Shown here: positions 23,291 through 34,632 of the stretch, one piece after another
Layout: each line of letters begins with the position of its first letter
Position numbering within the stretch: the first letter of the stretch is position 1
NCBI GenBank assembly: GCA_039919035.1
Contig: JBDSGI010000459.1
Location: 1 to 34,632 of the forward strand
Direction: 5' to 3'
From: Opitutaceae bacterium
GTDB taxonomy: Bacteria; Verrucomicrobiota; Verrucomicrobiia; Opitutales; Opitutaceae
Length of the DNA stretch: 34,632 nt
Position numbers and translations under genes: made by a program
The notes under the pieces: model-generated
Seen by the model: the letters and a program-made list of their open reading frames with translations, nothing else
Told to the model about the DNA's origin: nothing
The model's database searches: none

Positions 23291-23332
23291 CGGTCATCCT
23301 GACGTTGAAGGCTGATCGATCGGCACCCCCTC
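23291..23332. repeat. 42-bp imperfect direct repeat, copy B, covering the last 12 codons and stop of the response regulator
   Basis: 36/42 identical to 6653-6694. On the minus strand it reads EGVPIDQPSTSG* here and EDVAIDQPSTSE* at copy A. Confidence 0.85.
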
Positions 23333-24646
23333 AGCTCGAAGGCGCTGGAGTTTGTAGGTCAGCGCGCGGCGACTGATGGCGAGTTCCTTGGCGGTCTCGG
23401 TGCGGTTGTAATTATTTTTGCGCAGCGCTTTCAGGATCGCTTCGCGCTCGATTTCTTCGAGCCGTCGGGGATCGGCTTCGGTCGCAATGTCGGGCGGCGC
23501 GGCGACGAGGCGGGCCGGCAGGTGCTCCGGCAGGACCACTTCGCCGCGCGAGAGGAGCGCGGCGCGCTCCATCGCGTTGCGGAGCTCGCGCACGTTGCCG
23601 GGCCAGCGGTAGCGCGTGAGCGCGTTGGCGACAGTGGCGGAAAAGCGCGGCTTCTGCCGGGAAAACTGGCCAATGAAGTGCGTGGCCATGGGCAGAATAT
23701 CCTCCGGTCGCTCGCGAAGCGGGGGCAGATGAATCTCCATCACGTTGAGGCGATAGAACAGATCCTCGCGGAAGCGCCCGGCGGCGATCTGCGCCTCAAG
23801 ATCGTGACTGGTCGTGGCCAGCACGCGGGCATTGGTTGGGACATCGCGTGGCGATCCGACCCGGCGAAACGTCCCGTCATTGATGATGCGCAGGAGCGAG
23901 GCTTGGATCGTCGTGGGCAGGTCGCCGATCTCATCGAGGAGAATTGTGCCGCCCGCCGCCGCCTCGAAACGGCCGACGCTGCTCTGCGCGGCGCCGGCGA
24001 ACGCGTTTTTCTCATGGCCGAACAATTCGCTCTCGAGCACGTCCGCCGGAATCGCGGCGCAGTTGACCTTGATCAGCGGTCCGGCCGCACGGCGGCTCCA
24101 CGCGTGAATGAGGTCGGCGACGATTTCCTTGCCGACGCCGCTTTCGCCGGTGATAAGCACGCGGGTGTCGGTCGGGGCGATCACGGCGGTGTCGCGCAGC
24201 ACCGCCTGCATGAGCGGGCTTTGGGCGATAATGCCGGCGGGCAGCGGCGGCGGGGTTGGGCCCGAGACAACGGGCTCGGCGCCGGGATCGAGGGCGAGCC
24301 GCACCGATGTGATGAACTCTTCCAAGTCGATCGGTTTCGCGAGGTAGTTGACGGCGCCGTCGCGCATCGCGGCGACGGCGCTGCGAATATCCGCAAAAGC
24401 GGTGACCAGCAGCACGGGCAGGTCGGCGTGCTTTTGGCGCACGCGGCGCAGAGTTTCGATGCCTGACATGCCGGGCATGCGAACATCGCTCACCATCATG
24501 GCGAACGGCTGCTCGGCGAGCATTTGCAGGGCGGCCTCGCCGGACGCGGCGGTTTGTGTCTCGTAGCCTTGGGCGCGGAGAAACGTTTCCAGCAGGCTAC
24601 GTTGGCCGCGGTCGTCGTCGACGATGAGAATGCGAGGGGGCTTCAC
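23294..24646 (-). CDS. NtrC/AtoC-like response regulator (REC, AAA+, Fis-type HTH), 450 aa
   Basis: GTG start at 24646 overlaps the kinase stop (GTGA). Motifs RILIVDDD, SDVRMPGMSG, GESGVGKE, LLDEIG, FREDLFYRL, WPGNVREL and a C-terminal HTH. GAFTGA is replaced by NAFAGA. Confidence 0.92.
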   Translation of the reverse strand: MKPPRILIVDDDRGQRSLLETFLRAQGYETQTAASGEAALQMLAEQPFAMMVSDVRMPGMSGIETLRRVRQKHADLPVLLVTAFADIRSAVAAMRDGAVNYLAKPIDLEEFITSVRLALDPGAEPVVSGPTPPPLPAGIIAQSPLMQAVLRDTAVIAPTDTRVLITGESGVGKEIVADLIHAWSRRAAGPLIKVNCAAIPADVLESELFGHEKNAFAGAAQSSVGRFEAAAGGTILLDEIGDLPTTIQASLLRIINDGTFRRVGSPRDVPTNARVLATTSHDLEAQIAAGRFREDLFYRLNVMEIHLPPLRERPEDILPMATHFIGQFSRQKPRFSATVANALTRYRWPGNVRELRNAMERAALLSRGEVVLPEHLPARLVAAPPDIATEADPRRLEEIEREAILKALRKNNYNRTETAKELAISRRALTYKLQRLRAEGVPIDQPSTSG

Positions 24647-26124
24647 CGCGACGCAGCGGGCTGCGCCGCCGAAATCTTCAGATGGCGGAGCCGAAACAGT
24701 GCCCCGCGCGGCGCATTCTCGTCGCAGTTGATTTCCCAGCGGTGGGCGGCGACGATTTGCTGCACGATCGCGAGGCCGAGACCGGAACCCTTGGGGCGCA
24801 TGGTGACGTAGGGCTTGAAAATCGTGGCGCGTTCGCCGACGGGGACGCCCGGACCGTCGTCGGCGATTTCCATTTTTGCCTCGCCGGCGGCGTCGGCCAT
24901 CCAGCTTACATCGATCCGGCCCCCGCTGTCCACGGCCTGCACGGCGTTGAGGAGGAGATTGAAAAGCGCCTGGCGGAAAAGTGCGGCGTCGGCCTCGACC
25001 AGCAAAGGCATCGTGGCCGGGACGAGCTGAATTTGTTTTTCCTCGAGATCGGATTGGAGGGTTCGCGCCACGTCGGCCACCAAGGCGGAGAGTTCGACGG
25101 GGGCGAGGTGAGCTTCGCGCGGTTTGGAGTAATGAATGAACTCGTTGAGCTGAACGGTGACGCGATCGGCCTCCTCGATGATGTTGGCGGCATGCTCCTT
25201 CAGTTTCGGCGGGCTCTGCGGCTCCATCGCCATCAGCTGGGCGAGGCCGCGGATGAGGTTGAGGGGATTTCGCGTCTCGTGCGCGAGGCCGGCGGCGGCG
25301 AAATTCATGCCGCTCAGGTGAGTGTTCATCTCGACCGCCTTGACGAGGCGGATTTGGAGTGCGGCGTTCTGGCGGAGGTTGCGCCACGCGAGCGCCGCCC
25401 CGAGCGCGGCGCCGGCGGCGAGCAGGCTGACGAGCGTGCGCAGCAGCAGGTCGTTGCGCACGGCGTTGCGCAGCTCGACCGTCGAGAGCGAAATCACGAG
25501 ACTGTGCACGCCCTGCTTTTGGATGACCGAATTGTATTCCTCGGGGCTCATCCAGGCCGGACGGCCGAAAGGCGAGCGTGGCGAAGCGGGCCCGGCGGCC
25601 ACGGGATCGCCCGTTTTCGTGGTCGCGCCTTCGGGCGCGCGGCGGCTGGTGGAGGGGCGAAACGCCCGGGGATCGTTGACGACGATTGCCGCCGGGGGCC
25701 GCGTGGCGTCTTCCGGGGTGGCGGAGCCGAGGTCCATCACGTTCATCAGCGTGAGGGTGGTGGGGTGCCAGGCGACGCCGCGCTCGCGCAGCATTTCGGA
25801 GGTGGGCTCCAGATGAGGCCCGGCGCTCGCGATCGTTTCGCCGGTGGCGCCGAGGATGGCGATGGCCTCAAGTTCGCCGGGGCGCACGAGATCCAGAAGC
25901 GTGGCTTCGAGCCGATCCTTGGACACGATGCCGCCGAAGCGGCGCTGGGATCGGACGACGACGCCAAGGGTCGAGGTGATGTCACGCCCGCGGTTGATGA
26001 GCGCCTGGGCGGCGGCGCGCTCGAACCGCGCGTGCTCCTGCGCCTGCCAGCCGCACACCGCGAGCACCGCCGCGACGAAGAGCGCGGCGATCACGAGGCG
26101 ACGATTGGCGGGGAGCGGGCCCAT
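24643..26124 (-). CDS. Membrane sensor histidine kinase (ZraS/PilS-like)
   Basis: Two TM segments flank a periplasmic domain; H-box AHETRNPL, N-box NLLLNAVQA, DDGPG, IFKPY and GSGLGL. Confidence 0.93.
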   Translation of the reverse strand: MGPLPANRRLVIAALFVAAVLAVCGWQAQEHARFERAAAQALINRGRDITSTLGVVVRSQRRFGGIVSKDRLEATLLDLVRPGELEAIAILGATGETIASAGPHLEPTSEMLRERGVAWHPTTLTLMNVMDLGSATPEDATRPPAAIVVNDPRAFRPSTSRRAPEGATTKTGDPVAAGPASPRSPFGRPAWMSPEEYNSVIQKQGVHSLVISLSTVELRNAVRNDLLLRTLVSLLAAGAALGAALAWRNLRQNAALQIRLVKAVEMNTHLSGMNFAAAGLAHETRNPLNLIRGLAQLMAMEPQSPPKLKEHAANIIEEADRVTVQLNEFIHYSKPREAHLAPVELSALVADVARTLQSDLEEKQIQLVPATMPLLVEADAALFRQALFNLLLNAVQAVDSGGRIDVSWMADAAGEAKMEIADDGPGVPVGERATIFKPYVTMRPKGSGLGLAIVQQIVAAHRWEINCDENAPRGALFRLRHLKISAAQPAASR

Positions 26125-26170: not shown

Positions 26171-27289
26171 TCAATTCTTTTGGGGCGAAATGAAGCGGCT
26201 GAGGTCGGCCTTCTCGAAGATCTTGTTCGTCATCTCCAGTCGGGCCTGCTCGCCGTCGGTGACCTTGCTCAGTTCGTCGGGCGTGGCCACGACATGGGGA
26301 GTCAGGAAAATCAGGAGCTCGCTTTTCACCTTGCCGGTGGTCTTGCGGCGGAAGGCGGCCCCGAGCACCGGTATGTCGCCGAGGATCGGAATCTTGCTTT
26401 CGGAGTCGGAGTTTTGCGTCGAGATGAGGCCGCCGATGACAATCGTCTGATCGCTTTGGGTGACGACCACAGTGTCGGCGGAGCGCTTGTCAATCACGGG
26501 CTGACTGTTGATCGTCTGGACGCTCAGAGAGGAAATCTCCGGCGACACGATCATTTCGACGAGTCCGTTCGACGTGATGAACGGCGTGACCTTCAGGATA
26601 ATGCCGACGTCCTGATACGACGTGGTTGTGGTGATGGAATTCGAGTTGGTGTTGAGGGTCGAGGTGTTGACCAGCGGGATCGTCTGGCCGACGAGGATGG
26701 TCGCCTGCTGGTTGCTGCGCGTGAGGATCGAGGGGCGGGAGAGGATCTCGGTCTTGGCGACACCGGAGAGCGCGTGGATGGTCGCGTTTACGTCGCGGCC
26801 GACGAGTTGGTAGAAGGCGCCGTAAACGGTCCGATCCGCGAGTTGCTGGGCGACGCCAAATCGTGAGGTCGCGATGCCCTCGGGGTTGGTCTTGATCGAG
26901 ATGGGACCCTTGTAAACGGCCTCGGCGCCGAGGTCGAAGCTGTTGTCGTGCGTGACCTGCATGAAGACCACGTTGATCAGCACCTGCGGTTTCGGCTTAT
27001 CGAGATTGGCGATGATGGTCTTGATGTTTTCGTTGGTCGCATCGTCGGTCACGACGATGAGCCGGCGGGTATCGACATCGCTGGAGATCATGGCGTCGCC
27101 GACCATGGTGGTATTCTGGTAGGAGCGGGTGCCGCCGGAATTGGAGCCGCCACTCCCGCCGCCGGTGGCACCGCCGCCCGTGGTCGTGCCGCCGCGGCTG
27201 CCGGTCGTCTGGGCATGGAGGTTGCCAACAAGCAGGGCGGCGGTGGCAGCCAGTGCGAGCCGTTGGAATCGAGAGGTTCGGAAATTCAT
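26171..27289 (-). CDS. gspD: Secretin (GspD) C-terminal part: second half of N3 plus secretin core, with its own signal peptide
   Basis: Signal MNFRTSRFQRLALAATAALLVGNLHA/Q, a Gly/Thr-rich stretch, then ISSDVDTRRLIVV...IIANLDKPKPQVLI, ILSRPSI, VGQTIP, YQDVGIILKVTPFI, IVIGGL, KIPILGDIPVLGAAFR and ELLIFLTPHVV. Confidence 0.92.
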   Translation of the reverse strand: MNFRTSRFQRLALAATAALLVGNLHAQTTGSRGGTTTGGGATGGGSGGSNSGGTRSYQNTTMVGDAMISSDVDTRRLIVVTDDATNENIKTIIANLDKPKPQVLINVVFMQVTHDNSFDLGAEAVYKGPISIKTNPEGIATSRFGVAQQLADRTVYGAFYQLVGRDVNATIHALSGVAKTEILSRPSILTRSNQQATILVGQTIPLVNTSTLNTNSNSITTTTSYQDVGIILKVTPFITSNGLVEMIVSPEISSLSVQTINSQPVIDKRSADTVVVTQSDQTIVIGGLISTQNSDSESKIPILGDIPVLGAAFRRKTTGKVKSELLIFLTPHVVATPDELSKVTDGEQARLEMTNKIFEKADLSRFISPQKN

Positions 27290-27337
27290 AGTCAGATCGG
27301 TTTGCGTTCGAAGGGGGATGGAGAGCGCGCGGATTCG

Positions 27338-28567
27338 TTAGTTGGTGCGGGCCCCGGTGGTGGCGCTGTTGGTGCCGAGCTGGAGGTTTTGCGTGGTATT
27401 TTGCTGCGCGTTTTGGGTGGCGCGGGTGGTCAGCGCATCCGGCTGGTTGTTGGTCGTCGTGCGGCCGGTGCTGCTCTGGAAGAGATTCTTCAGCACGGTT
27501 TCGACCTGCTTCACGTTCGCATTCTCCATCGTGTAAACGAAGACCTTCTGTTTGCGTGCCGAGCTGGAATCGAGCTGCGCGACCATTTCGGTGATGTCCG
27601 GCATCACTTCCTTCGCCGCCGTCACAATCACGGAATAGGTGCGCGGGTCGGCCACGGCGACCACAGGCACGGTGCGCGCCGAGGTGGTGCCGCCGCTCCC
27701 GCCGCCGGTGCGGGAGCCGCGACCGCTCGTGCTGCCGCCGGGGGCTGCGCCGCCACCGCCGAAAGCGGCGGCGAGACCGGGCGGCAAGCCGCCGCCGAAA
27801 CCGGGGAATCCACCGCGCCCGGTGGTGCCGGTGGTGCCGCCGCGTCCGCCCGCGCCGGCGGCAGGCGTCCCGTAAAGACTGGTGAGCAACTGCGCCATTT
27901 CATAGGGGTCGGCGTTCACGAGCTTGAAAACCTTCATCGTCGAGACGGTGTCGCTCGAGCTGTCGAGCGCGTTCACGAGCGTGACGACCTGCTTCAGGTT
28001 GATGTTGGTGTCGGTGACGAGGAGGGAATTGCTGTCCGTGTTGGCGGTGATGGCGGAAGAGCCGGGCAGCAGCGTGCCGAGGTCGCGGGCAGCGGTGGTC
28101 GCGTCGAGATGGCGCAGCGGGATGATCTGGATGAACATCTCGGCGGTCATTGGGATATCCTCGGGATTGTTGCCGGTGCGGATCGGCAGGTTCTTTTTCT
28201 TCGCGTCGTCCTTTGAGGCAATGACGATGGTGCGGCCCTGCACGACGGCGGTGTAGCCGTTCTTGCTGAGCGCGATTTGGAGGAGCTGGATGGCCTCCGC
28301 TTTCGTCACCGGTTGGGCGCTATACATGTCCACGTTGCCGCGCACAGGCGTGTCCATGACGATGATGAAGCCGGCGGCCTCGCTCATGTAGTTGAGGACG
28401 GTTTCGAGCGGGGCGCCGCGAAAGTTGAAACGCAGCTCGCCGGGGGCGCGGGACGAGTCGGTCGCGGCGGCGGTCGTGGTGGCGGGCGCCGGTATCTGGG
28501 CTGGGGCCCCGGCCGTCAGGGCGGCGAATCCGAGGCAGAGCGTGGGGGCAAGGAGGTTGGTTTTCAT
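27338..28567 (-). CDS. gspD: Secretin (GspD) N-terminal part: N0, N1, N2 and first half of N3, with signal peptide
   Basis: N0: LRFNFRGAPLETVL...DTPVRGNV...ALSKNG. N1: QIIPLRHLDA...SNSLLVTD...ALD. N2: KVFKLVNADP...DPRTYSVIV...QLD. These are followed by KVFVYTMENANVKQVETVLKNLF and a Thr/Asn/Gln-rich tail. There is no secretin barrel domain. Confidence 0.88.
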   Translation of the reverse strand: MKTNLLAPTLCLGFAALTAGAPAQIPAPATTTAAATDSSRAPGELRFNFRGAPLETVLNYMSEAAGFIIVMDTPVRGNVDMYSAQPVTKAEAIQLLQIALSKNGYTAVVQGRTIVIASKDDAKKKNLPIRTGNNPEDIPMTAEMFIQIIPLRHLDATTAARDLGTLLPGSSAITANTDSNSLLVTDTNINLKQVVTLVNALDSSSDTVSTMKVFKLVNADPYEMAQLLTSLYGTPAAGAGGRGGTTGTTGRGGFPGFGGGLPPGLAAAFGGGGAAPGGSTSGRGSRTGGGSGGTTSARTVPVVAVADPRTYSVIVTAAKEVMPDITEMVAQLDSSSARKQKVFVYTMENANVKQVETVLKNLFQSSTGRTTTNNQPDALTTRATQNAQQNTTQNLQLGTNSATTGARTN

Positions 28568-29262
28568 TTTTTCAAATCTTGATTGCGCTTTTCCATGAGG
28601 CGCCGGGTGACTTCATCGGCGTTGGTCGGGATGACTACTTGGGCGGTCGGATCGATTTTGCCGGCGCTGGTCTTGGCGGCGGCGGTCGCGGCCTCGCTGC
28701 GCACGACATCGGCGGCGATGAGTTTCCATTCGCCCCCTTCCGGGCGGCGCAGTTGCTGGCCGACGCGCATCGAGACCGGCTGGCCTTCGCGCTCCAGCTC
28801 GACACCGGTGGGCGAGACTTGGGTGACTTTAAACGACTCGATGGAATCGCCGGCGCGCAGGGCTTTGCGATAGGCGGACGAGGAACCGTCAAAAAACGCC
28901 CGGAGCCCGCGGTCGGATTCCATGGTGCCGACGAGGGTGATCTGGTCGAGTCGCGGCGCAATTTCCTCGGTGCTGCGCTCGCGGCGGCCGGTGCGATTCG
29001 GGTTGAAAATATTCCGATCGGCGATGGCGCGAAATCCGTCAAACGATCCAGCCGGAGCGGTGGCGGTGTCCGTGCGCGCGGGGGTCTTCGCGCTAGATTC
29101 GGCACGCGACCGGCGCGACGGCGCGGGCGAGGCCGGGAGGGCCGGCGTGACGGCGGCCGGGGCGACCGGGGCAGGTGTGTCAGGTGCCTTCGCCGGCTCT
29201 GCGGCCAGAGCATGGGCGGCGCTGACGGTGAGGACCGTGAGGAAGAAAGTGCGCGGCATCAT
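28564..29262 (-). CDS. GspC/PilP-like T2SS connector protein
   Basis: Position between gspM and gspD, an N-terminal hydrophobic segment, a Pro/Ala linker, RNIFNP, and ITLVGT...A-F...LRAGDSI...VTQV (homology-region-like beta fold). Confidence 0.65.
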   Translation of the reverse strand: MMPRTFFLTVLTVSAAHALAAEPAKAPDTPAPVAPAAVTPALPASPAPSRRSRAESSAKTPARTDTATAPAGSFDGFRAIADRNIFNPNRTGRRERSTEEIAPRLDQITLVGTMESDRGLRAFFDGSSSAYRKALRAGDSIESFKVTQVSPTGVELEREGQPVSMRVGQQLRRPEGGEWKLIAADVVRSEAATAAAKTSAGKIDPTAQVVIPTNADEVTRRLMEKRNQDLKK

Positions 29263-29810
29263 TGTTGTTTGCGCTCCAAGGGTGAGAGGCGAAGGCCGCT
29301 GACGATGAGGCCGAGGGTGAGCTTTTGACCGTAGTCGTCGCGCGAGGTCATTTCAACCGAGTCGACGCGCAGGGCAAGCGGTGAGTGTTCCAGTTCATAG
29401 ATGAAGCGGCTCAGCGTCGGAATCGTGCCGGTGGCATCGACGCGGGTTTCGAGCAACGAATAGGTGTCCTTGGCGCCACGCTTCCATTGCGGACGGATGG
29501 AGCTGAGTTCGATGTTGTTGGCGCGGCCCCAGCGGTCGAACGAGGAAATCACATCCTGCTCGGCCTGCGATGCGTCTTTCGGCAGGGCGTTGGCCCGCAT
29601 GTCGGCCCAGGTTTTTTCGGTCTGGTTGGCGCGGGCGATGGCGTTGCGGCCACGCGCGACATCGCTCTTCAGCTTCGCGATCTCGGCGGAGTGCGCCTTA
29701 TACGTTTTGTAGAGCGGCTCGAACAGAACGCTGTTGAGCACAAAGAGGGCGACCATGACGCCGGCCCCGATCACGAGCCCGCGCTGGCGGTTGGGAAGGG
29801 TGATTTTCAT
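29259..29810 (-). CDS. gspM: GspM/PilO-like inner-membrane protein
   Basis: LPNRQR followed by a single TM, a coiled coil and a ferredoxin-like C-terminus (ATGTIPTLSRFIYELE...LRVDSVEM); operon position supports the call. Confidence 0.72.
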   Translation of the reverse strand: MKITLPNRQRGLVIGAGVMVALFVLNSVLFEPLYKTYKAHSAEIAKLKSDVARGRNAIARANQTEKTWADMRANALPKDASQAEQDVISSFDRWGRANNIELSSIRPQWKRGAKDTYSLLETRVDATGTIPTLSRFIYELEHSPLALRVDSVEMTSRDDYGQKLTLGLIVSGLRLSPLERKQQ

Positions 29811-31249
29811 ATGCCGGCGCGGGTTTTCCAGCCGAAGGTGAGGGTGAATTGCATCGGGGTTTTACCGCGGATCTGCTCGATCTTGAGGTTCTGGACTTCT
29901 TTCACCTGCCGCAACTGCTCCTGCACGCGGAGGAGTGAGGCGTTGTCTCGTGCCGTGCCGCTGATGTTGACGAGGGCATTGGGGGCATTGAGGTTGACGA
30001 GGGCATTGGTGTTGCCGCGCACCTCGAAGGTTTTGGCGGTGACGCTGCCGTTGTCCGGAAAGCATTCGGTCACGCGCATCAGGATACTGAGGCTGCGGTG
30101 CGTGGTGTCATACCACGGCTTGAACTCGTCGATTTGCCGCTGCACGGCGTCGAGTTTCACGACTTGCGGCTGCATGTCGCCCCACTCGGAACGCAAGTTC
30201 CAGCGTTCGTATTCCTGCCAGCCGAACGCCGCGAGGGCGACGAGAGCGGCGGCACCCACGGCGAATCCGGCCGTCGCGAGCCGCTTCGAGTTGTAGCGCG
30301 CCATGAGCAGCGCCCAGCGGCCCGGATGGGGGGGGAGAAACTCAAGTTCAGATGAGTCGTTCTCCAGCCACCGGCCCGCGAGCTTTTCCGCGATTTCGGC
30401 GGAGAGATCCTTGTCGGGCAGGTCGCCGCGCACGATCGCGAGGCCCATGCCCTTGGCCCAGTCGCCGAGACTGCCGGCGAGCTGCCGGGCCAGACCGGAT
30501 TCGCCGGTCAGGTAGAGTTCGTGCAATTGCGCGCGGAGGTCGGCGGGCACCTGCTCGAGCGTGATGCGCAACTCGCGCGCAACCGCCGCGCCGTTGAGGA
30601 CGCTCTCTCCGGCCTCCGAATTGATGTTCACTTCAAACGTGCGGAACGCCGCGATGCCGCCCCCCGCGGCTACGAGCAGGGTCACGCCGGCGTGATCGAC
30701 GGCGACGATGATGCGGCCGGCGCCGGCGGCCACGTGGGCGGCGGGCAGCACGGCGAGACCGAGGGAGAAACTCACCGGCTTGAGCTTGGCGGCCCGTAAC
30801 ACGGCGATGAGCTGCTCCAGCTGTTCGCGGCGCACCGCGAGCTGGGTGACGTGGGTGCCGGACTCCGATTTTTGAAACGAGTGTGCGATCTGAAGTTGCG
30901 CGGGATCGACTGGGAAGCCCTTTTCGGCCTCGATTTGGAGGAAGCTCGCGGTGTCCTCGGGCGAAAGCTCCGGCACCTTGGTCTGCTGGCTCATCACCCA
31001 GCGCGGGGGAATGCGGACGACGCACTCCCGCTCGCGGATGCCCGCCGCGTCGAGGTGGTTCTTGATCTCGCGACCGATGAGTTCCGGCTCGGGATGCATC
31101 AGATCGAGGGAGAGTGCGGCGCTCGCGGCTTTCACGACTTCGAGGCCGCCCTTGGCACGGGTCATGTGAATTGCCCGCAACTGGCCGTCGCTGAGCGAAA
31201 GGCCGAGGACGGATTGGGCGCGCTTTTTGATTTTCCTCTTCATGCTCAT
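29807..31249 (-). CDS. gspL: GspL-like (PilM-like cytoplasmic actin-fold domain, TM, PilN-like periplasmic domain), 480 aa
   Basis: ATG 31249 forms an ATGA overlap with the gspK stop. VLGLSLSDGQLRAI is PilM-like, followed by LEFLPP, a TM, a coiled coil and VNISGTA...FTL. Confidence 0.75.
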   Translation of the reverse strand: MSMKRKIKKRAQSVLGLSLSDGQLRAIHMTRAKGGLEVVKAASAALSLDLMHPEPELIGREIKNHLDAAGIRERECVVRIPPRWVMSQQTKVPELSPEDTASFLQIEAEKGFPVDPAQLQIAHSFQKSESGTHVTQLAVRREQLEQLIAVLRAAKLKPVSFSLGLAVLPAAHVAAGAGRIIVAVDHAGVTLLVAAGGGIAAFRTFEVNINSEAGESVLNGAAVARELRITLEQVPADLRAQLHELYLTGESGLARQLAGSLGDWAKGMGLAIVRGDLPDKDLSAEIAEKLAGRWLENDSSELEFLPPHPGRWALLMARYNSKRLATAGFAVGAAALVALAAFGWQEYERWNLRSEWGDMQPQVVKLDAVQRQIDEFKPWYDTTHRSLSILMRVTECFPDNGSVTAKTFEVRGNTNALVNLNAPNALVNISGTARDNASLLRVQEQLRQVKEVQNLKIEQIRGKTPMQFTLTFGWKTRAGI

Positions 31250-32646
31250 ATGTCGGTTATTCCGTTCAGGGCGCGACGGATCACGGTGCCAAGCGCCCAC
31301 CCGAAGGCGGTGAGATCCTGCCGGTAAACGATGCGGGGCGTGCTGGTGCTGGTATCGAAAACAATCTTCTCGCGGCCATAGCCCCGGCCGTTGGTGCCCA
31401 CCGCCGCGATGTCGGCGCTGAATTGGTAGGACTGGTCGGTGATGTAGCGGCCCGCCTGGCGAATTTGCGCGTTGGTGAGCACCTGCGTGAGCCAAGCCAT
31501 CGAGGTGAGGGCGGTTGGGTTGGACCGGCGATAGGAAACCAGCGCGGCGGCGCGTTCGGCGCCGATGCCCGGAATGCAAGTCAGGACGGCCTCGCTGGCG
31601 GTGTTGACGTTGACGAGGCCGGGGGCCGCGCCGTTGTTCGCGCTCGAGGCCGTGAGGTCGGTGTGCACGAGCACGAATTCTTCGGCGGTCATCTGCGTTG
31701 TGACCATGAAGTCCGCGACACTGTTGATCGTGCTTTGGTTGTTGGGAATTCGTGGATCGAAGGGAAGGCGCGCCATCATTTGAGCGGCGCGCTGGGTGGA
31801 GATGCCGCGCTGCGTGAGGCGACTCTGCATCTGCTGGCGCGTTTGCTGCGTGGTAAGGGTGGTGACGTTGATACGCCGTGACCCCGAGGCAGAAGTAGCC
31901 GGCACTCGGCTGTAAACCGTCACGTATTCCAGCAGCCCGGCGAGCAGCTGACCGTTCTGGTCGTCGCGAGGTGCGGAGAGGTCGCCGTCGTCCTCGTTGG
32001 GATCGAGCACGCCGTTGCGATTGGTGTCCTCGCCGAGCAGCACGTCGAGCATGGCGCCGTTGATCAGGCGGACCTCATCAACCGTCTCGTATGGCGCTCC
32101 CTTATTGTGGCGCGCCGGATCGAGCTGCGAATAGAGATTATCCATGTTGGCCGCGTTCTGGCTCGTGGCGCTGCGCCAGGCGACGATGGCATCGGCCAGT
32201 TCGGCCGTCATGGTTGGAATCGGCAGGGCTTGCAGCATCGCCGAGGTGACGGTGTTCAGGTTGAGCTTCGACGATTCATCAACCAGGGCGAAATAGGGCT
32301 GGTTCAGCTGTGCCTGCGGTTGTTCGTCGGTGTTGCGGCCGATGAACCAGAAAGTCGCGTCGCCCACGGGCAGCGCCTCGGCCTTGTAGTCTTCGATGCT
32401 GGGAACGGTGCCGCCGACGGCGAACTGCTTGAGCACGTAGGTGGCGTAGCGAATGCCGCCGGCAACGGCCTGACGGGCGGAAACTTCGCTGATGCGATTG
32501 TTGGCCGCGCGCAGCTCCGAACTCATCGAGTTGCCGAAGTAGAGCGTGAGCGTGACGAGCCCCAGGCAAATCCACATCACGATGACCAAGACCGAGCCAC
32601 GCCGGGACTGGGTGCGAACGGAGGAACTTGTTTCCCGGTGAATCAT
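31246..32646 (-). CDS. gspK: Minor pseudopilin GspK
   Basis: Prepilin site RRG/SVLVIVMW without Glu5, DESSKLNLN, ADAIVAWR, VNVNTASEAVL and a helix-hairpin-helix IPGIG. Confidence 0.9.
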   Translation of the reverse strand: MIHRETSSSVRTQSRRGSVLVIVMWICLGLVTLTLYFGNSMSSELRAANNRISEVSARQAVAGGIRYATYVLKQFAVGGTVPSIEDYKAEALPVGDATFWFIGRNTDEQPQAQLNQPYFALVDESSKLNLNTVTSAMLQALPIPTMTAELADAIVAWRSATSQNAANMDNLYSQLDPARHNKGAPYETVDEVRLINGAMLDVLLGEDTNRNGVLDPNEDDGDLSAPRDDQNGQLLAGLLEYVTVYSRVPATSASGSRRINVTTLTTQQTRQQMQSRLTQRGISTQRAAQMMARLPFDPRIPNNQSTINSVADFMVTTQMTAEEFVLVHTDLTASSANNGAAPGLVNVNTASEAVLTCIPGIGAERAAALVSYRRSNPTALTSMAWLTQVLTNAQIRQAGRYITDQSYQFSADIAAVGTNGRGYGREKIVFDTSTSTPRIVYRQDLTAFGWALGTVIRRALNGITDI

Positions 32647-33446
32647 AGCGCGGGCGCGGCGAGCGCCGCATCAGCGGCCAGTTGCGCGCTGGTCGGGGTG
32701 GTGACGTAAACCGGCACGACGAGCTCGACCGGACCGGGATTGGTGCTCGCGAAGGCATTCCCACGCGGGGCGAGCACGAGACTGAACTTAAACGCGGAGG
32801 GCAGGGTGCCCGTCGCGGTGGTGTCCCACGTGTCGGCCCAATATTCGCCGTCGAAAAACGAAAGGGAGGCCGACACCACGCCGGGCAGCAGCGTGAAGGT
32901 ATCCGCGATCGGGTCGGTCGCGGGCAGCAGGTTGCGGGTCACGACGCGCACGAGATCTTTGGTGGGGCCGCCGTCCGCCGCTGGGGTGAGGTAGTAGGCG
33001 ACGGTTTGCACCTCGGCGAAGGGCGTCCAGCCGTCGATGCGACCGGAGCTGGTGGTGATGTCGGGCGTGACGCGTTCGCCCTGGCTGTCCATCGCGTTGG
33101 TGCTGAAGCTGTCGCTGACGAGCTGGCCGGAGAGCGTATTGGTCGTGGCCTGCGGATTGGCCGGAAGCATGATGCCGGCGAGATCCTTGCGCACGATGCC
33201 CAGGGTGCGTTGCACCACGAGGTCCAGGTCGATTTTCTCGTGGGTGGTGTTGTGCAGACGCAGCGCGCCGAAAAACGTGGTGTTAATCACGAGCAGCACG
33301 ATTGCGCCGATGGCGGTGGCGACTAGGAGTTCAAGCAAAGTGAACCCAGCTTTGCCGCGGTTGCCCACCGCCCGGCTGCTGTCGCGCCGGACGGCGTGAC
33401 GCGGGCTGCGGCGGGCGCGATGAACGTGATGGGCGGCGGGGTTCAT
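32643..33446 (-). CDS. gspJ: Minor pseudopilin GspJ
   Basis: KAG/FTLLELLVA class III signal, IVRKDLAG, VAYYL, FFDG...W-DTW and LPSA; it lies before gspK. Confidence 0.88.
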   Translation of the reverse strand: MNPAAHHVHRARRSPRHAVRRDSSRAVGNRGKAGFTLLELLVATAIGAIVLLVINTTFFGALRLHNTTHEKIDLDLVVQRTLGIVRKDLAGIMLPANPQATTNTLSGQLVSDSFSTNAMDSQGERVTPDITTSSGRIDGWTPFAEVQTVAYYLTPAADGGPTKDLVRVVTRNLLPATDPIADTFTLLPGVVSASLSFFDGEYWADTWDTTATGTLPSAFKFSLVLAPRGNAFASTNPGPVELVVPVYVTTPTSAQLAADAALAAPAL

Positions 33447-33868
33447 TGCGTCACGGCGGCGAGGCCGCTGGTCGTGGTGCCGGTGACCGCCGGGTCATAC
33501 AGCGTGCTCGCGGCGATGTCGAAGGTTGTCCCTTGGACATCGAACGACACTCGCACGGTGACGACGGTCATCGCGTCTTCCGTCCACGGTTCGGTGAGCA
33601 TCGTCCACGGGTAGCTGATATCGCCATCAATGACGTTGCCGTAGGGCGTCGCGGTGCCGATTTGGCCGGAGGCGATTTGCTCGTTGAGCACCCGCTCGGC
33701 GATGCGCATTGCGGTTGCCTTGCGCTGGCCGAGGATGCCCGCCCGACTGGCCACCGCCACGCCTTGCATCGTAACTGGGATCAAAATGGCCATGAACAAC
33801 AAGGCGGCCAGCACTTCTGCCAGCGTGAATCCCCTGGGGCGCAGGTGGCGCTGGGCATCAGTTGACAT
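33443..33868 (-). CDS. gspI: Minor pseudopilin GspI
   Basis: ATG 33868 gives MSTDAQRHLRPRG/FTLAEVLAAL, A-RIAERVLNE, YPW and VTVRVSF. Its size (141 aa) and position fit GspI. Confidence 0.85.
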   Translation of the reverse strand: MSTDAQRHLRPRGFTLAEVLAALLFMAILIPVTMQGVAVASRAGILGQRKATAMRIAERVLNEQIASGQIGTATPYGNVIDGDISYPWTMLTEPWTEDAMTVVTVRVSFDVQGTTFDIAASTLYDPAVTGTTTSGLAAVTQ

Positions 33869-34421
33869 TGGACAGAGGCCGCACCTCGTAGCCGAGCCGG
33901 TTGGCCATCGGCACGAGTTCGAGGCCGGCTTCATTTCCCAGTCGGATGGAGATCTTGGCGACGCTCGAGTCGTCGAAGAAGCCGTCCGGCGTAAAGCGGA
34001 TGACCGCCATGTTCTCATCGGTGAGGCCCAGCCGCTCGTCGTCCTGTTCCGAAATGGGCGCGTTGGCGCGTTCCGGCGTCTCCAGTGTAAGCCCCGCCTC
34101 CGCGACATAGCGGATGGCGCGGGTGTCGAGTTCGGCATCCGCGTAACTGGACTGCACCGCGAGTCCGTAGGCGGACTCGGCGGGACTAATCCAGACGATA
34201 AACGGAATGCCTTCCGAGACCGCGCGACTTTGCGCGTAGTGGGTTAGCGAAAGCATGCGGCGGGCTTCGAAATTCAGCGCGCGGCCACGAAAGAAAGAAC
34301 CCATGCTCGAAACGACGAACACCGCCGCGATGGCCAGCAGCGCGAGCACGAAGATCAGTTCGATCAGGGTGAAACCGCCGCACCGTCGCGGGGAAAAGTT
34401 ACTTTGCCGTGATCGATGCAT
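33858..34421 (-). CDS. gspH: Minor pseudopilin GspH/FimT-like
   Basis: GG/FTLIELIFVLALLAI, YAQSRAVSEG and IRFTPDG. Confidence 0.88.
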   Translation of the reverse strand: MHRSRQSNFSPRRCGGFTLIELIFVLALLAIAAVFVVSSMGSFFRGRALNFEARRMLSLTHYAQSRAVSEGIPFIVWISPAESAYGLAVQSSYADAELDTRAIRYVAEAGLTLETPERANAPISEQDDERLGLTDENMAVIRFTPDGFFDDSSVAKISIRLGNEAGLELVPMANRLGYEVRPLSNVN

Positions 34422-34632
34422 TCACCACGTCGTCCGCTGTGCCAGCCTGGCCGTCCGGTCCCATGGAAACAACGTCGTAACCGCTGACGTTTACCCGACC
34501 GGGGAACTCGTAAACGTAAGGATGGCCCCAAGGATCGAGCGGGATGTCACTCTTCAGGTAGGGCCCGCGCCAGCCGGTGATGTCGGCGGGGGCGACCAGC
34601 AGTTGATTGAGGCCGTCCTGGCCTCGCGGGTA
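34399..34632 (-). CDS. gspG: Major pseudopilin GspG, 3' part only
   Basis: Manual translation: YPRGQDGLNQLLVAPADITGWRGPYLKSDIPLDPWGHPYVYEFPGRVNVSGYDVVSMGPDGQAGTADDVVNASITAK*. It has the hallmark GPYL, DPWG-Y-Y and S-GPDG...DD motifs and is not in the ORF track. Confidence 0.93.
   Translation of the reverse strand, partial: YPRGQDGLNQLLVAPADITGWRGPYLKSDIPLDPWGHPYVYEFPGRVNVSGYDVVSMGPDGQAGTADDVVNASITAK

What the first reader, a model, noticed from the sequence alone, without database searches (positions are those of the whole stretch)
26171..28567. T2SS secretin split into two separately exported polypeptides, with the break inside the N3 domain
Seen: gene 1 encodes signal peptide, N0, N1, N2 and only the first strand and helix of an N3-type domain, then ends in a Thr/Asn/Gln-rich tail. 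Gene 2 has its own Sec signal (LHA/Q), a Gly/Thr-rich stretch, the remaining strand-strand-helix of N3 and the full secretin core. Established: canonical GspD is one chain, N3 often has a disordered Ser/Gly loop at this position, and N3 is important for ring assembly. Inference: this is gene fission in the N3 loop, so N3 would be rebuilt in trans from two proteins. That would give a two-part secretin with a potentially exchangeable periplasmic N0-N2 module. The second signal peptide argues against a simple sequencing error.
Basis: partly seen in the sequence, partly recalled or inferred. Interest (0 to 1): 0.85.

Follow-up and report, generated by a model that had tools for sequence, protein, structure and literature searches.

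The report
Secretin pore encoded in separate pieces
The outer-membrane pore protein of this bacterium's type II secretion machine is encoded by two adjacent genes cut in the middle of one small domain, which the two likely separately exported proteins probably rebuild together; relatives have made the same kind of cut again to give three-piece versions, and some carry spare stand-alone copies of the front piece, so the pore may be built from exchangeable modules.

Summary
Real, and not an error. Gene D1 (27338-28567, minus) encodes a signal peptide, N0, N1, N2 and the first strand-helix of N3. D2 (26171-27289) encodes its own signal peptide, the rest of N3 and the secretin barrel. All 140 informative loci (three searches, some genomes repeated) are split there; junction frames and stop codons vary, which rules out error or recoding. 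The cut lies in the long Gly-rich N3 loop of the single-chain relatives. The orphaned half-domain is D1's most conserved part (pN/pS 0.10). Rebuilding N3 in trans is inferred: complex prediction gave only weak support (0.38, controls 0.00) and covariation is modest. New here: in 9 of 92 loci of one Verrucomicrobiota order D1 is cut again at the same point of N2, with a third signal peptide, on three separate branches. Six of 99 genomes carry a second, stand-alone D1 with no D2 beside it, which fits swappable periplasmic modules. This scan reported the two-gene split before on other DNA. Split secretins are published for rhizobial type III systems, and half N-domains for the mitochondrial type II system; ten searches found no bacterial type II case.

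The parts
27338..28567 (-). D1 (gspD N-terminal gene), 409 aa: signal peptide, N0, N1, N2 with Gly-rich loop, first half of N3, tail
28499..28567 (-). predicted Sec signal peptide of D1 (residues 1-23, A23|Q24)
   Evidence: sequence; A23 invariant and Q24 nearly invariant in 32 sequences
28202..28435 (-). N0 domain (about residues 45-122)
   Evidence: PF21305, E 2.5e-13
27956..28144 (-). N1 domain (about 142-204)
27563..27949 (-). N2 domain (about 207-335) with Gly-rich loop 235-298; this loop is where three-piece relatives are cut a second time
27479..27553 (-). N3 first half, strand 1 and helix 1 (339-363)
   Evidence: same hydrophobic pattern as single-chain relatives; pN/pS 0.10
27341..27478 (-). 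Thr/Asn/Gln tail (364-409) with conserved L379 and R382; first part of the ancestral N3 loop
27290..27337 (-). 48-nt spacer after the TAA at 27338-27340
   Evidence: bridged by public contigs
26171..27289 (-). D2 (gspD C-terminal gene), 372 aa: signal peptide, Gly/Thr stretch, second half of N3, secretin core, short helical C-terminus
27212..27289 (-). predicted Sec signal peptide of D2 (1-26, A26|Q27); no lipobox or Tat motif
   Evidence: sequence
27098..27127 (-). conserved motif 55-64 before N3 strand 2 (Y57 and G64 invariant); predicted extra strand 60-63
26993..27097 (-). N3 second half, strands 2-3 and helix 2 (65-99)
26285..26992 (-). secretin beta-barrel core (100-335)
   Evidence: PF00263, E 2.3e-48
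28564..34632 (-). rest of the type II secretion operon in the window: GspC-position gene without a family match (28564-29262), gspM (29259-29810), gspL-like (29807-31249), gspK (31246-32646), gspJ, gspI, gspH, and the end of gspG (34402-34632)
   Evidence: gspE and gspF lie upstream in relatives
23294..26124 (-). histidine kinase and sigma-54 response regulator directly downstream; linked to the operon in some relatives only

Best explanation
This is a type II secretion secretin (GspD) whose gene is split inside the long loop of domain N3 into two conserved genes; the two products are likely exported separately by Sec and are predicted to meet in the periplasm, where D1's last strand and helix would complete D2's half N3. 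Shown: the two-gene layout, its conservation, the position of the cut, selection on both half-domains, and the intact operon around it. Inferred: export and cleavage of both signal peptides; pairing of D1 strand 1 with D2 strand 3 and packing of helix 1 on helix 2; ring assembly as in other GspD proteins, with D2 forming the barrel and D1 the N0-N2 vestibule that contacts the inner-membrane platform. The strand-helix | strand-strand-helix loop of these N domains seems a generally tolerated cutting point. It was cut once at N3 in the ancestor of this clade, again at N2 on three branches (three-piece secretins), and probably twice more among the single-chain sister group. The Opitutaceae copies, including this one, nest inside the copies of another order and were likely acquired horizontally.
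For: Split in 41 of 41 informative loci of 45 (GTDB scan plus this genome), 6 of 6 and 93 of 93; none fused. Frames 0/1/2 are 17/15/9, 2/3/1 and 33/30/30, and all three stops are used. A hydrophobic core of 2.0 or more was found in 133 of 140 D2 starts and a small-residue/Gln cleavage motif in 134 of 140. Two loci have 0.5-0.8 kb between D1 and D2. In the family the same 24 of 151 genomes hold both genes. Single-chain relatives have a loop of about 31-123 aa at the cut (119 proteins). pN/pS over 11 sequences: N3 first half 0.10, second half 0.16, loops 0.5-0.6. The hydrophobic pattern of the first half is unchanged against 68 of 119 single-chain proteins that gave a hit. Three-piece forms occur in 9 of 92 loci, with three origins on each of three trees, and an AU test on six of them rejected one clade (p 0.012). 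Complex prediction: weak support, score 0.38, best control 0.00. The mark was reached by 116 of 157 solved and 2 of 215 mismatched pairs, but at 0.60 or under by only 18 of the 157 and by both mismatches; runs agree in at least 72% of contacts; partner pLDDT at least 58. Halves of a split gene can pass from likeness to solved secretins. Covariation: 8 of the top 15 D1-D2 pairs fall in the strand 1 x strand 3/helix 2 block, against 2.5 expected, 7 for intrachain N2, 3 and 0 for mismatched halves, and a maximum of 6 in 30 shuffles. N3 is reported as required for pore assembly (PMC8134430).
Against: No expression, export or binding data. The complex job gave no interface, so it does not show that the contact is at N3. 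Whole-map covariation did not correlate with single-chain or intrachain maps (rho 0.015, p 0.66; rho 0.056, p 0.11), and the block used was chosen. The D2 model has an extra strand (60-63) that could help it fold alone. The D1 model is poor (pLDDT 54, pTM 0.25). Support for the whole split clade is 87, not starred. Trees are quick searches without bootstrap.
Confidence: 0.75

Rival explanations
1. D2 folds and forms the pore alone, using its own strand 60-63 or a reduced N3, and D1 docks underneath as a separate ring or adaptor through other surfaces, with its last strand-helix binding D1 neighbours or another partner.
For: Extra predicted strand and invariant Y57/G64 in D2; a conserved helix around L379-R382 in D1's tail; a linker role was proposed for rhizobial RhcC1 (PMC3459982).
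Against: The halves are exactly complementary in every locus. The 55-64 motif is missing from middle pieces of three-piece forms and from basal D2 proteins, so cuts work without it. Covariation is enriched for D1 N3-half x D2 (8 of 15) but not x D1's own N2 half (0 of 15).
Confidence: 0.2
2. One chain is made by stop read-through or frameshifting, and the second signal peptide is just part of the loop.
For: In this genome the two ORFs are in frame with one TAA between them.
Against: Frames and stops vary evenly across 140 loci; gaps of 0.5-0.8 kb in two loci; stand-alone D1 genes exist.
Confidence: 0.02
3. Sequencing error or a decaying pseudogene.
For: The genome is a 64% complete, 678-contig assembly.
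Against: Conservation across many families, a cultured isolate (L003) and complete chromosomes (L012, G237); purifying selection; contigs confirm the junction. The one apparent fused close relative, P0001, has an off-frame middle and still holds the second signal peptide, so it is a frameshift artefact.
Confidence: 0.01

Closest known systems
Canonical single-chain T2SS secretin GspD (PulD 6hcg, XcpQ 5wln, E. coli 5wq7, Vibrio 5wq8; TIGR02517)
   Same: Domain order N0-N1-N2-N3-secretin, operon context, fold of D2. PulD also has an unresolved loop (288-303) just before the stretch that D2 matches from chain residue 308.
   Different: Two genes and two signal peptides; N3 divided between chains; no pilotin gene seen next to it in the window.
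Single-chain GspD of Phycisphaerae-type Planctomycetota (P0002-P0120; P0120 named Humisphaera borealis)
   Same: Nearest uncut relatives, 38-46% identical to D2, sister group on the tree, long Gly-rich N3 loop.
   Different: Uncut, except P0343 (signal peptide + second half of N3) and P0302 (signal peptide + second half of N2 onward), which look like independent cuts but are single proteins without genomic context.
Rhizobial T3SS RhcC1/RhcC2 (PMC3574062, PMC3459982)
   Same: Secretin function encoded by two genes.
   Different: Type III system; the two genes have different origins (RhcC2 from a Tad system, with a BON domain) and are not adjacent halves of one gene.
Mitochondrial T2SS GspD, GspDL, GspDN1-3 (PMC8134430)
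   Same: A T2SS secretin in several pieces; GspDN2 and GspDN3 match the C- and N-terminal halves of an N domain.
   Different: Eukaryotic, highly diverged, no N0, partial barrel; which N domain is halved is unknown; I did not see the supplementary figure with the boundaries.

Membership tests
T2SS secretin GspD | C-terminal secretin domain | tested here: met
   PF00263, E 2.3e-48 in D2; Foldseek E 4.6e-16 to 6hcg
T2SS secretin GspD | N0 plus N1-N3 periplasmic domains | tested here: met
   N0, N1, N2 in D1; N3 divided between D1 and D2
T2SS secretin GspD | One polypeptide over the TIGR02517 cut-off | tested here: not met
   156 and 226 bits separately against a cut-off of 351
T2SS secretin GspD | In an operon with gspE, F, G, H-K, L, M, C | tested here: met
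   G-M in the window, E and F upstream in relatives; the GspC-position gene has no family match
T2SS secretin GspD | Sec export by a cleaved signal peptide | tested here: inconclusive
   rule-based only; no SignalP or proteomics
T2SS secretin GspD | S-domain and pilotin | tested here: inconclusive
   C-terminal helices 337-366 align into the C-terminal region of 5zdh; no pilotin gene recognised in the window; genome not searched for one
T2SS secretin GspD | 15-fold outer-membrane ring that secretes proteins | not testable with these tools
   needs cryo-EM and a secretion assay
Rhizobial split secretin RhcC1/RhcC2 | Type III locus; C-terminal gene of Tad origin with BON domain | tested here: not met
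   type II operon; D2's best model is GspD and it has no BON hit
Mitochondrial GspDN2/GspDN3 | Half N-domains on separate polypeptides | tested here: met
   same kind of division; common origin not tested and not implied
Lipoprotein secretins (self-piloting) | Lipobox cysteine after the signal peptide | tested here: not met
   none here; pattern in 2 of 140 D2 starts

The most novel reading that the evidence does not exclude
These bacteria build their secretin from plug-in modules joined by half-domain complementation: one barrel protein (D2) accepts alternative periplasmic vestibules (operon D1 or stand-alone D1 paralogues encoded next to other exported proteins and under other regulation), and in some lineages the vestibule is itself a chain of two plugged pieces. 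That would let a cell change the substrate-facing or platform-facing end of a type II pore without changing the pore.
Probability: 0.3. Interest if true: 0.85.

Novelty: new variant of a known kind. Interest (0 to 1): 0.68.

Why it matters
N3 is reported to be needed for secretin pore assembly, so a lineage that ships it as two halves on separate chains, and that repeated the cut at N2 three times, shows where the folding units of a secretin really lie. It makes open questions testable: whether the barrel can assemble without the vestibule, whether the N0-N2 ring must match the barrel's copy number (the 15-versus-6/12 symmetry mismatch discussed in PMC6882859), and whether the vestibule sets substrate choice. 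It also corrects annotation: these gene pairs fail the GspD model and read as broken or hypothetical, though 97 of 151 sampled genomes of one order carry a D2-type gene. A cultured carrier exists (Horticoccus sp. 23ND18S-11, L003).

Tried and rejected
P0001 as a fused clade member: rejected as a frameshift read-through. Four long open frames (G445, G412, G487, G496): all split on inspection. Search for the genomic context of P0302 in metagenomes did not return its contig; L193 is similar but looks chimeric. Whole-map covariation: no signal. D1 structure model too poor to judge the half-domain. Promoter/terminator scan: 0 promoters, 3 terminators on the other strand against 2.5 expected. No RNA holder listed for the locus. 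My first reading of a rare, patchy operon (6 of 400 phylum genomes) was a sampling effect: it is common in one order and rare elsewhere (23 of 150 in the family; 3 of 101 in another class). Paper searches found no bacterial type II case; the library lacks most subscription journals. No supplements were read; Supplementary Fig. 4 of PMC8134430 bears on where the mitochondrial halves are cut.

Full report
Observation. Two minus-strand ORFs, D1 (27338-28567, 409 aa) and D2 (26171-27289, 372 aa), sit 48 nt apart at the end of a type II secretion operon. D1 has N0 (PF21305) and N-type repeats and ends in one strand and one helix (339-363) plus a Thr/Asn/Gln tail. D2 starts with a signal-peptide-like segment and a Gly/Thr stretch, then matches only profile positions 32-69 of PF03958, then the secretin domain. 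One in-frame TAA separates them here. Two public contigs from one study bridge it with 0 and 1 differences; that study may be the source of the assembly.

Conservation. A GTDB scan gave 44 loci, all titled as Verrucomicrobiota-group records. With this genome, 41 of 45 loci covered both genes and all 41 were split at the same place; the other four end too early. A phylum-wide sample had only 6 close matches in 400 genomes, all split. A search centred on G351 found a match in 102 of 151 genomes: 97 D2-type and 5 matching only giant secretins. I examined 94 of the 97, and all were split. In the family, the same 24 of 151 genomes hold one D1 and one D2; another class had 3 of 101. Over the 140 informative loci (some genomes occur in more than one set) frames and stop codons are spread evenly, 133 D2 starts have a hydrophobic core and 134 a small-residue/Gln cleavage motif by my rule, 2 have a lipobox-like pattern and none a Tat motif. 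Two loci have 0.5-0.8 kb between the genes. Error and recoding are therefore excluded. The top 23 clusters of an exhaustive profile search are all short proteins; 21 show a signal peptide before the second half of N3 and 2 are fragments. The only long close hit, P0001, is a frameshift artefact.

Where the cut lies. The nearest uncut proteins are Phycisphaerae-type GspD, 38-46% identical to D2. In 119 of them a Gly-rich loop of about 31-123 residues separates helix 1 from strand 2 of N3 (the printed output was partly cut, one call was weak, and the range is the script's summary without P0001). D1's tail and D2's Gly stretch are the two ends of that loop. PulD has an unresolved loop 288-303 next to the matching position (PMC6882859 passages). 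Over 11 close sequences the first half of N3 is the most conserved part of D1 (pN/pS 0.10), the tail 366-395 is 0.17, D2 55-64 is 0.17 and the second half of N3 is 0.16, against 0.5-0.6 for loops. The hydrophobic pattern of the first half equals that of single-chain proteins (68 of 119 gave a hit).

Mechanism. Both chains are likely exported by Sec. D1's strand and helix would complete D2's strand-strand-helix to give a whole N3, which is reported as required for pore assembly (PMC8134430 passage) and linked to gating (PMC8563730 passages). Strand 1 lying beside strand 3 is recalled from the KH-like fold, not from a call. Direct support is modest. The complex job on D2 27-372 with D1 205-409 gave weak support: 0.38 against 0.00 for the best of 3 controls; the mark was reached by 116 of 157 solved and 2 of 215 mismatched pairs, at 0.60 or under by 18 of the 157 and both mismatches; contact agreement at least 72%; partner pLDDT at least 58; no interface was given and likeness to solved secretins may explain the pass. 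Covariation over 175 paired loci put 8 of the top 15 inter-chain pairs in the strand 1 x strand 3/helix 2 block (2.5 expected; intrachain N2 7; mismatched halves 3 and 0; 30 shuffles mean 2.2, maximum 6), but the block was chosen after and whole-map correlations were not significant. The D2 model shows an extra strand at 60-63, which keeps the 'D2 folds alone' rival alive.

Repeated cuts. In 9 of 92 loci of the G351 order that cover the region (2 of 94 do not), D1 is cut again between helix 1 and strand 2 of N2. The middle gene has its own signal-peptide-like start (Pfam check on L124). These forms have one more N domain than the window's D1. They arise three times on trees of D2, of the middle piece and of N0-N1; an AU test on the first six rejected a single clade (p 0.012). 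Among the single-chain sister group, P0343 and P0302 begin with a signal peptide followed by a second half-domain and sit beside uncut proteins (96* and 97*; AU p 0.044 against grouping P0343 with the split clade); their gene context is unknown. The split clade itself has support 87 (39 rows), its core 99*. The Opitutaceae copies form a 100* group inside the G351-order copies, which with the patchy family distribution suggests horizontal gain. These are quick trees without bootstrap.

Stand-alone D1 genes. A D1 search in the same order found 99 of 151 genomes, 6 with a second copy. All six second copies are intact ORFs from signal peptide to tail with no D2 or gspC-M block beside them; a seventh lies in G432, where no D2 match was found (87% complete). 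Each of the six genomes showed one D2-type secretin (completeness 66-98%, contamination 1-5%). Neighbours include a CotH/EF-hand protein, a dioxygenase-like protein with a twin-arginine-like start, and copies of the operon's leading small protein. They arise at least six times, and three sit next to their own genome's or a close relative's operon D1. In all six pairs pN is below pS in the N3 half; its identity to the operon copy is 0.78, 0.78, 0.59, 0.56, 0.41 and 0.30. This fits alternative front modules for one barrel, but decaying duplicates are not excluded, and none was found in this genome or its family.

Known cases. Rhizobial type III systems encode the secretin on two genes of different origin (PMC3574062 and PMC3459982 passages). 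The mitochondrial type II system has GspDN2 and GspDN3, halves of an N domain (PMC8134430 passages), so a halved N domain has a precedent. PMC6668835 discusses fission only for TadB/TadC in the passages seen; PMC3422733 passages add nothing. Ten searches (listings only) found no bacterial type II case. This scan has reported the two-gene split on other genomes at least six times; look-ups for three-piece and stand-alone forms returned no such note.

Verdict. It works like GspD but fails the one-chain test: a new variant of a known kind. The split is certain; in-trans rebuilding of N3 about 0.75; exchangeable modules about 0.3. Interest 0.68.

Noticed in passing
L123-L128, L194, L198, L200: Three-piece secretins: a second cut at the same point of N2, each piece with its own signal-peptide-like start; three independent origins.
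   Followed up: yes
L257:5786-7381, L258:5921-7597, L259:3854-5476, L260:5716-7191, L261:763-2574, L262:5916-7472, L263:5175-6779: Stand-alone D1 genes away from the operon, keeping the N3 half; next to exported proteins in some cases.
   Followed up: partly
L120:1285-13383 (G412:C162) and other rows; P0299, P0307, P0316: Giant secretin ORFs of about 3,000-5,500 aa; the 4,033-aa one has 40 Secretin_N stretches. They are common in the G351 order, beside the split GspD.
   Followed up: partly
L085:4175-4792, L079:753-1334, L082:16264-16770; own genome contig C494: A small exported helical protein leads the operon before gspE and has paralogues beside two stand-alone D1 genes. No Pfam family over cut-off; language-model neighbours are automatically named Spy/CpxP-like chaperones (0.94). 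A possible folding helper; a lead only.
   Followed up: partly
window 28564-29262: The gene at the GspC position has no Pfam or NCBIfam match of note but is conserved in place in the relatives examined.
   Followed up: no
window 23294-26124: Histidine kinase and sigma-54 regulator directly after D2, kept in several relatives (G291, G351, G527) and absent from that place in others (G237, G306).
   Followed up: no
L222 and L225: 0.5-0.8 kb of apparently non-coding DNA between D1 and D2.
   Followed up: partly
L119 (G496:C129): D2 has an in-frame TAA inside the secretin domain in this one assembly; error or pseudogene not resolved.
   Followed up: no
P0302, P0343: Likely independent cuts (N2 and N3) among Phycisphaerae-type single-chain GspD; gene context not obtained.
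   Followed up: partly
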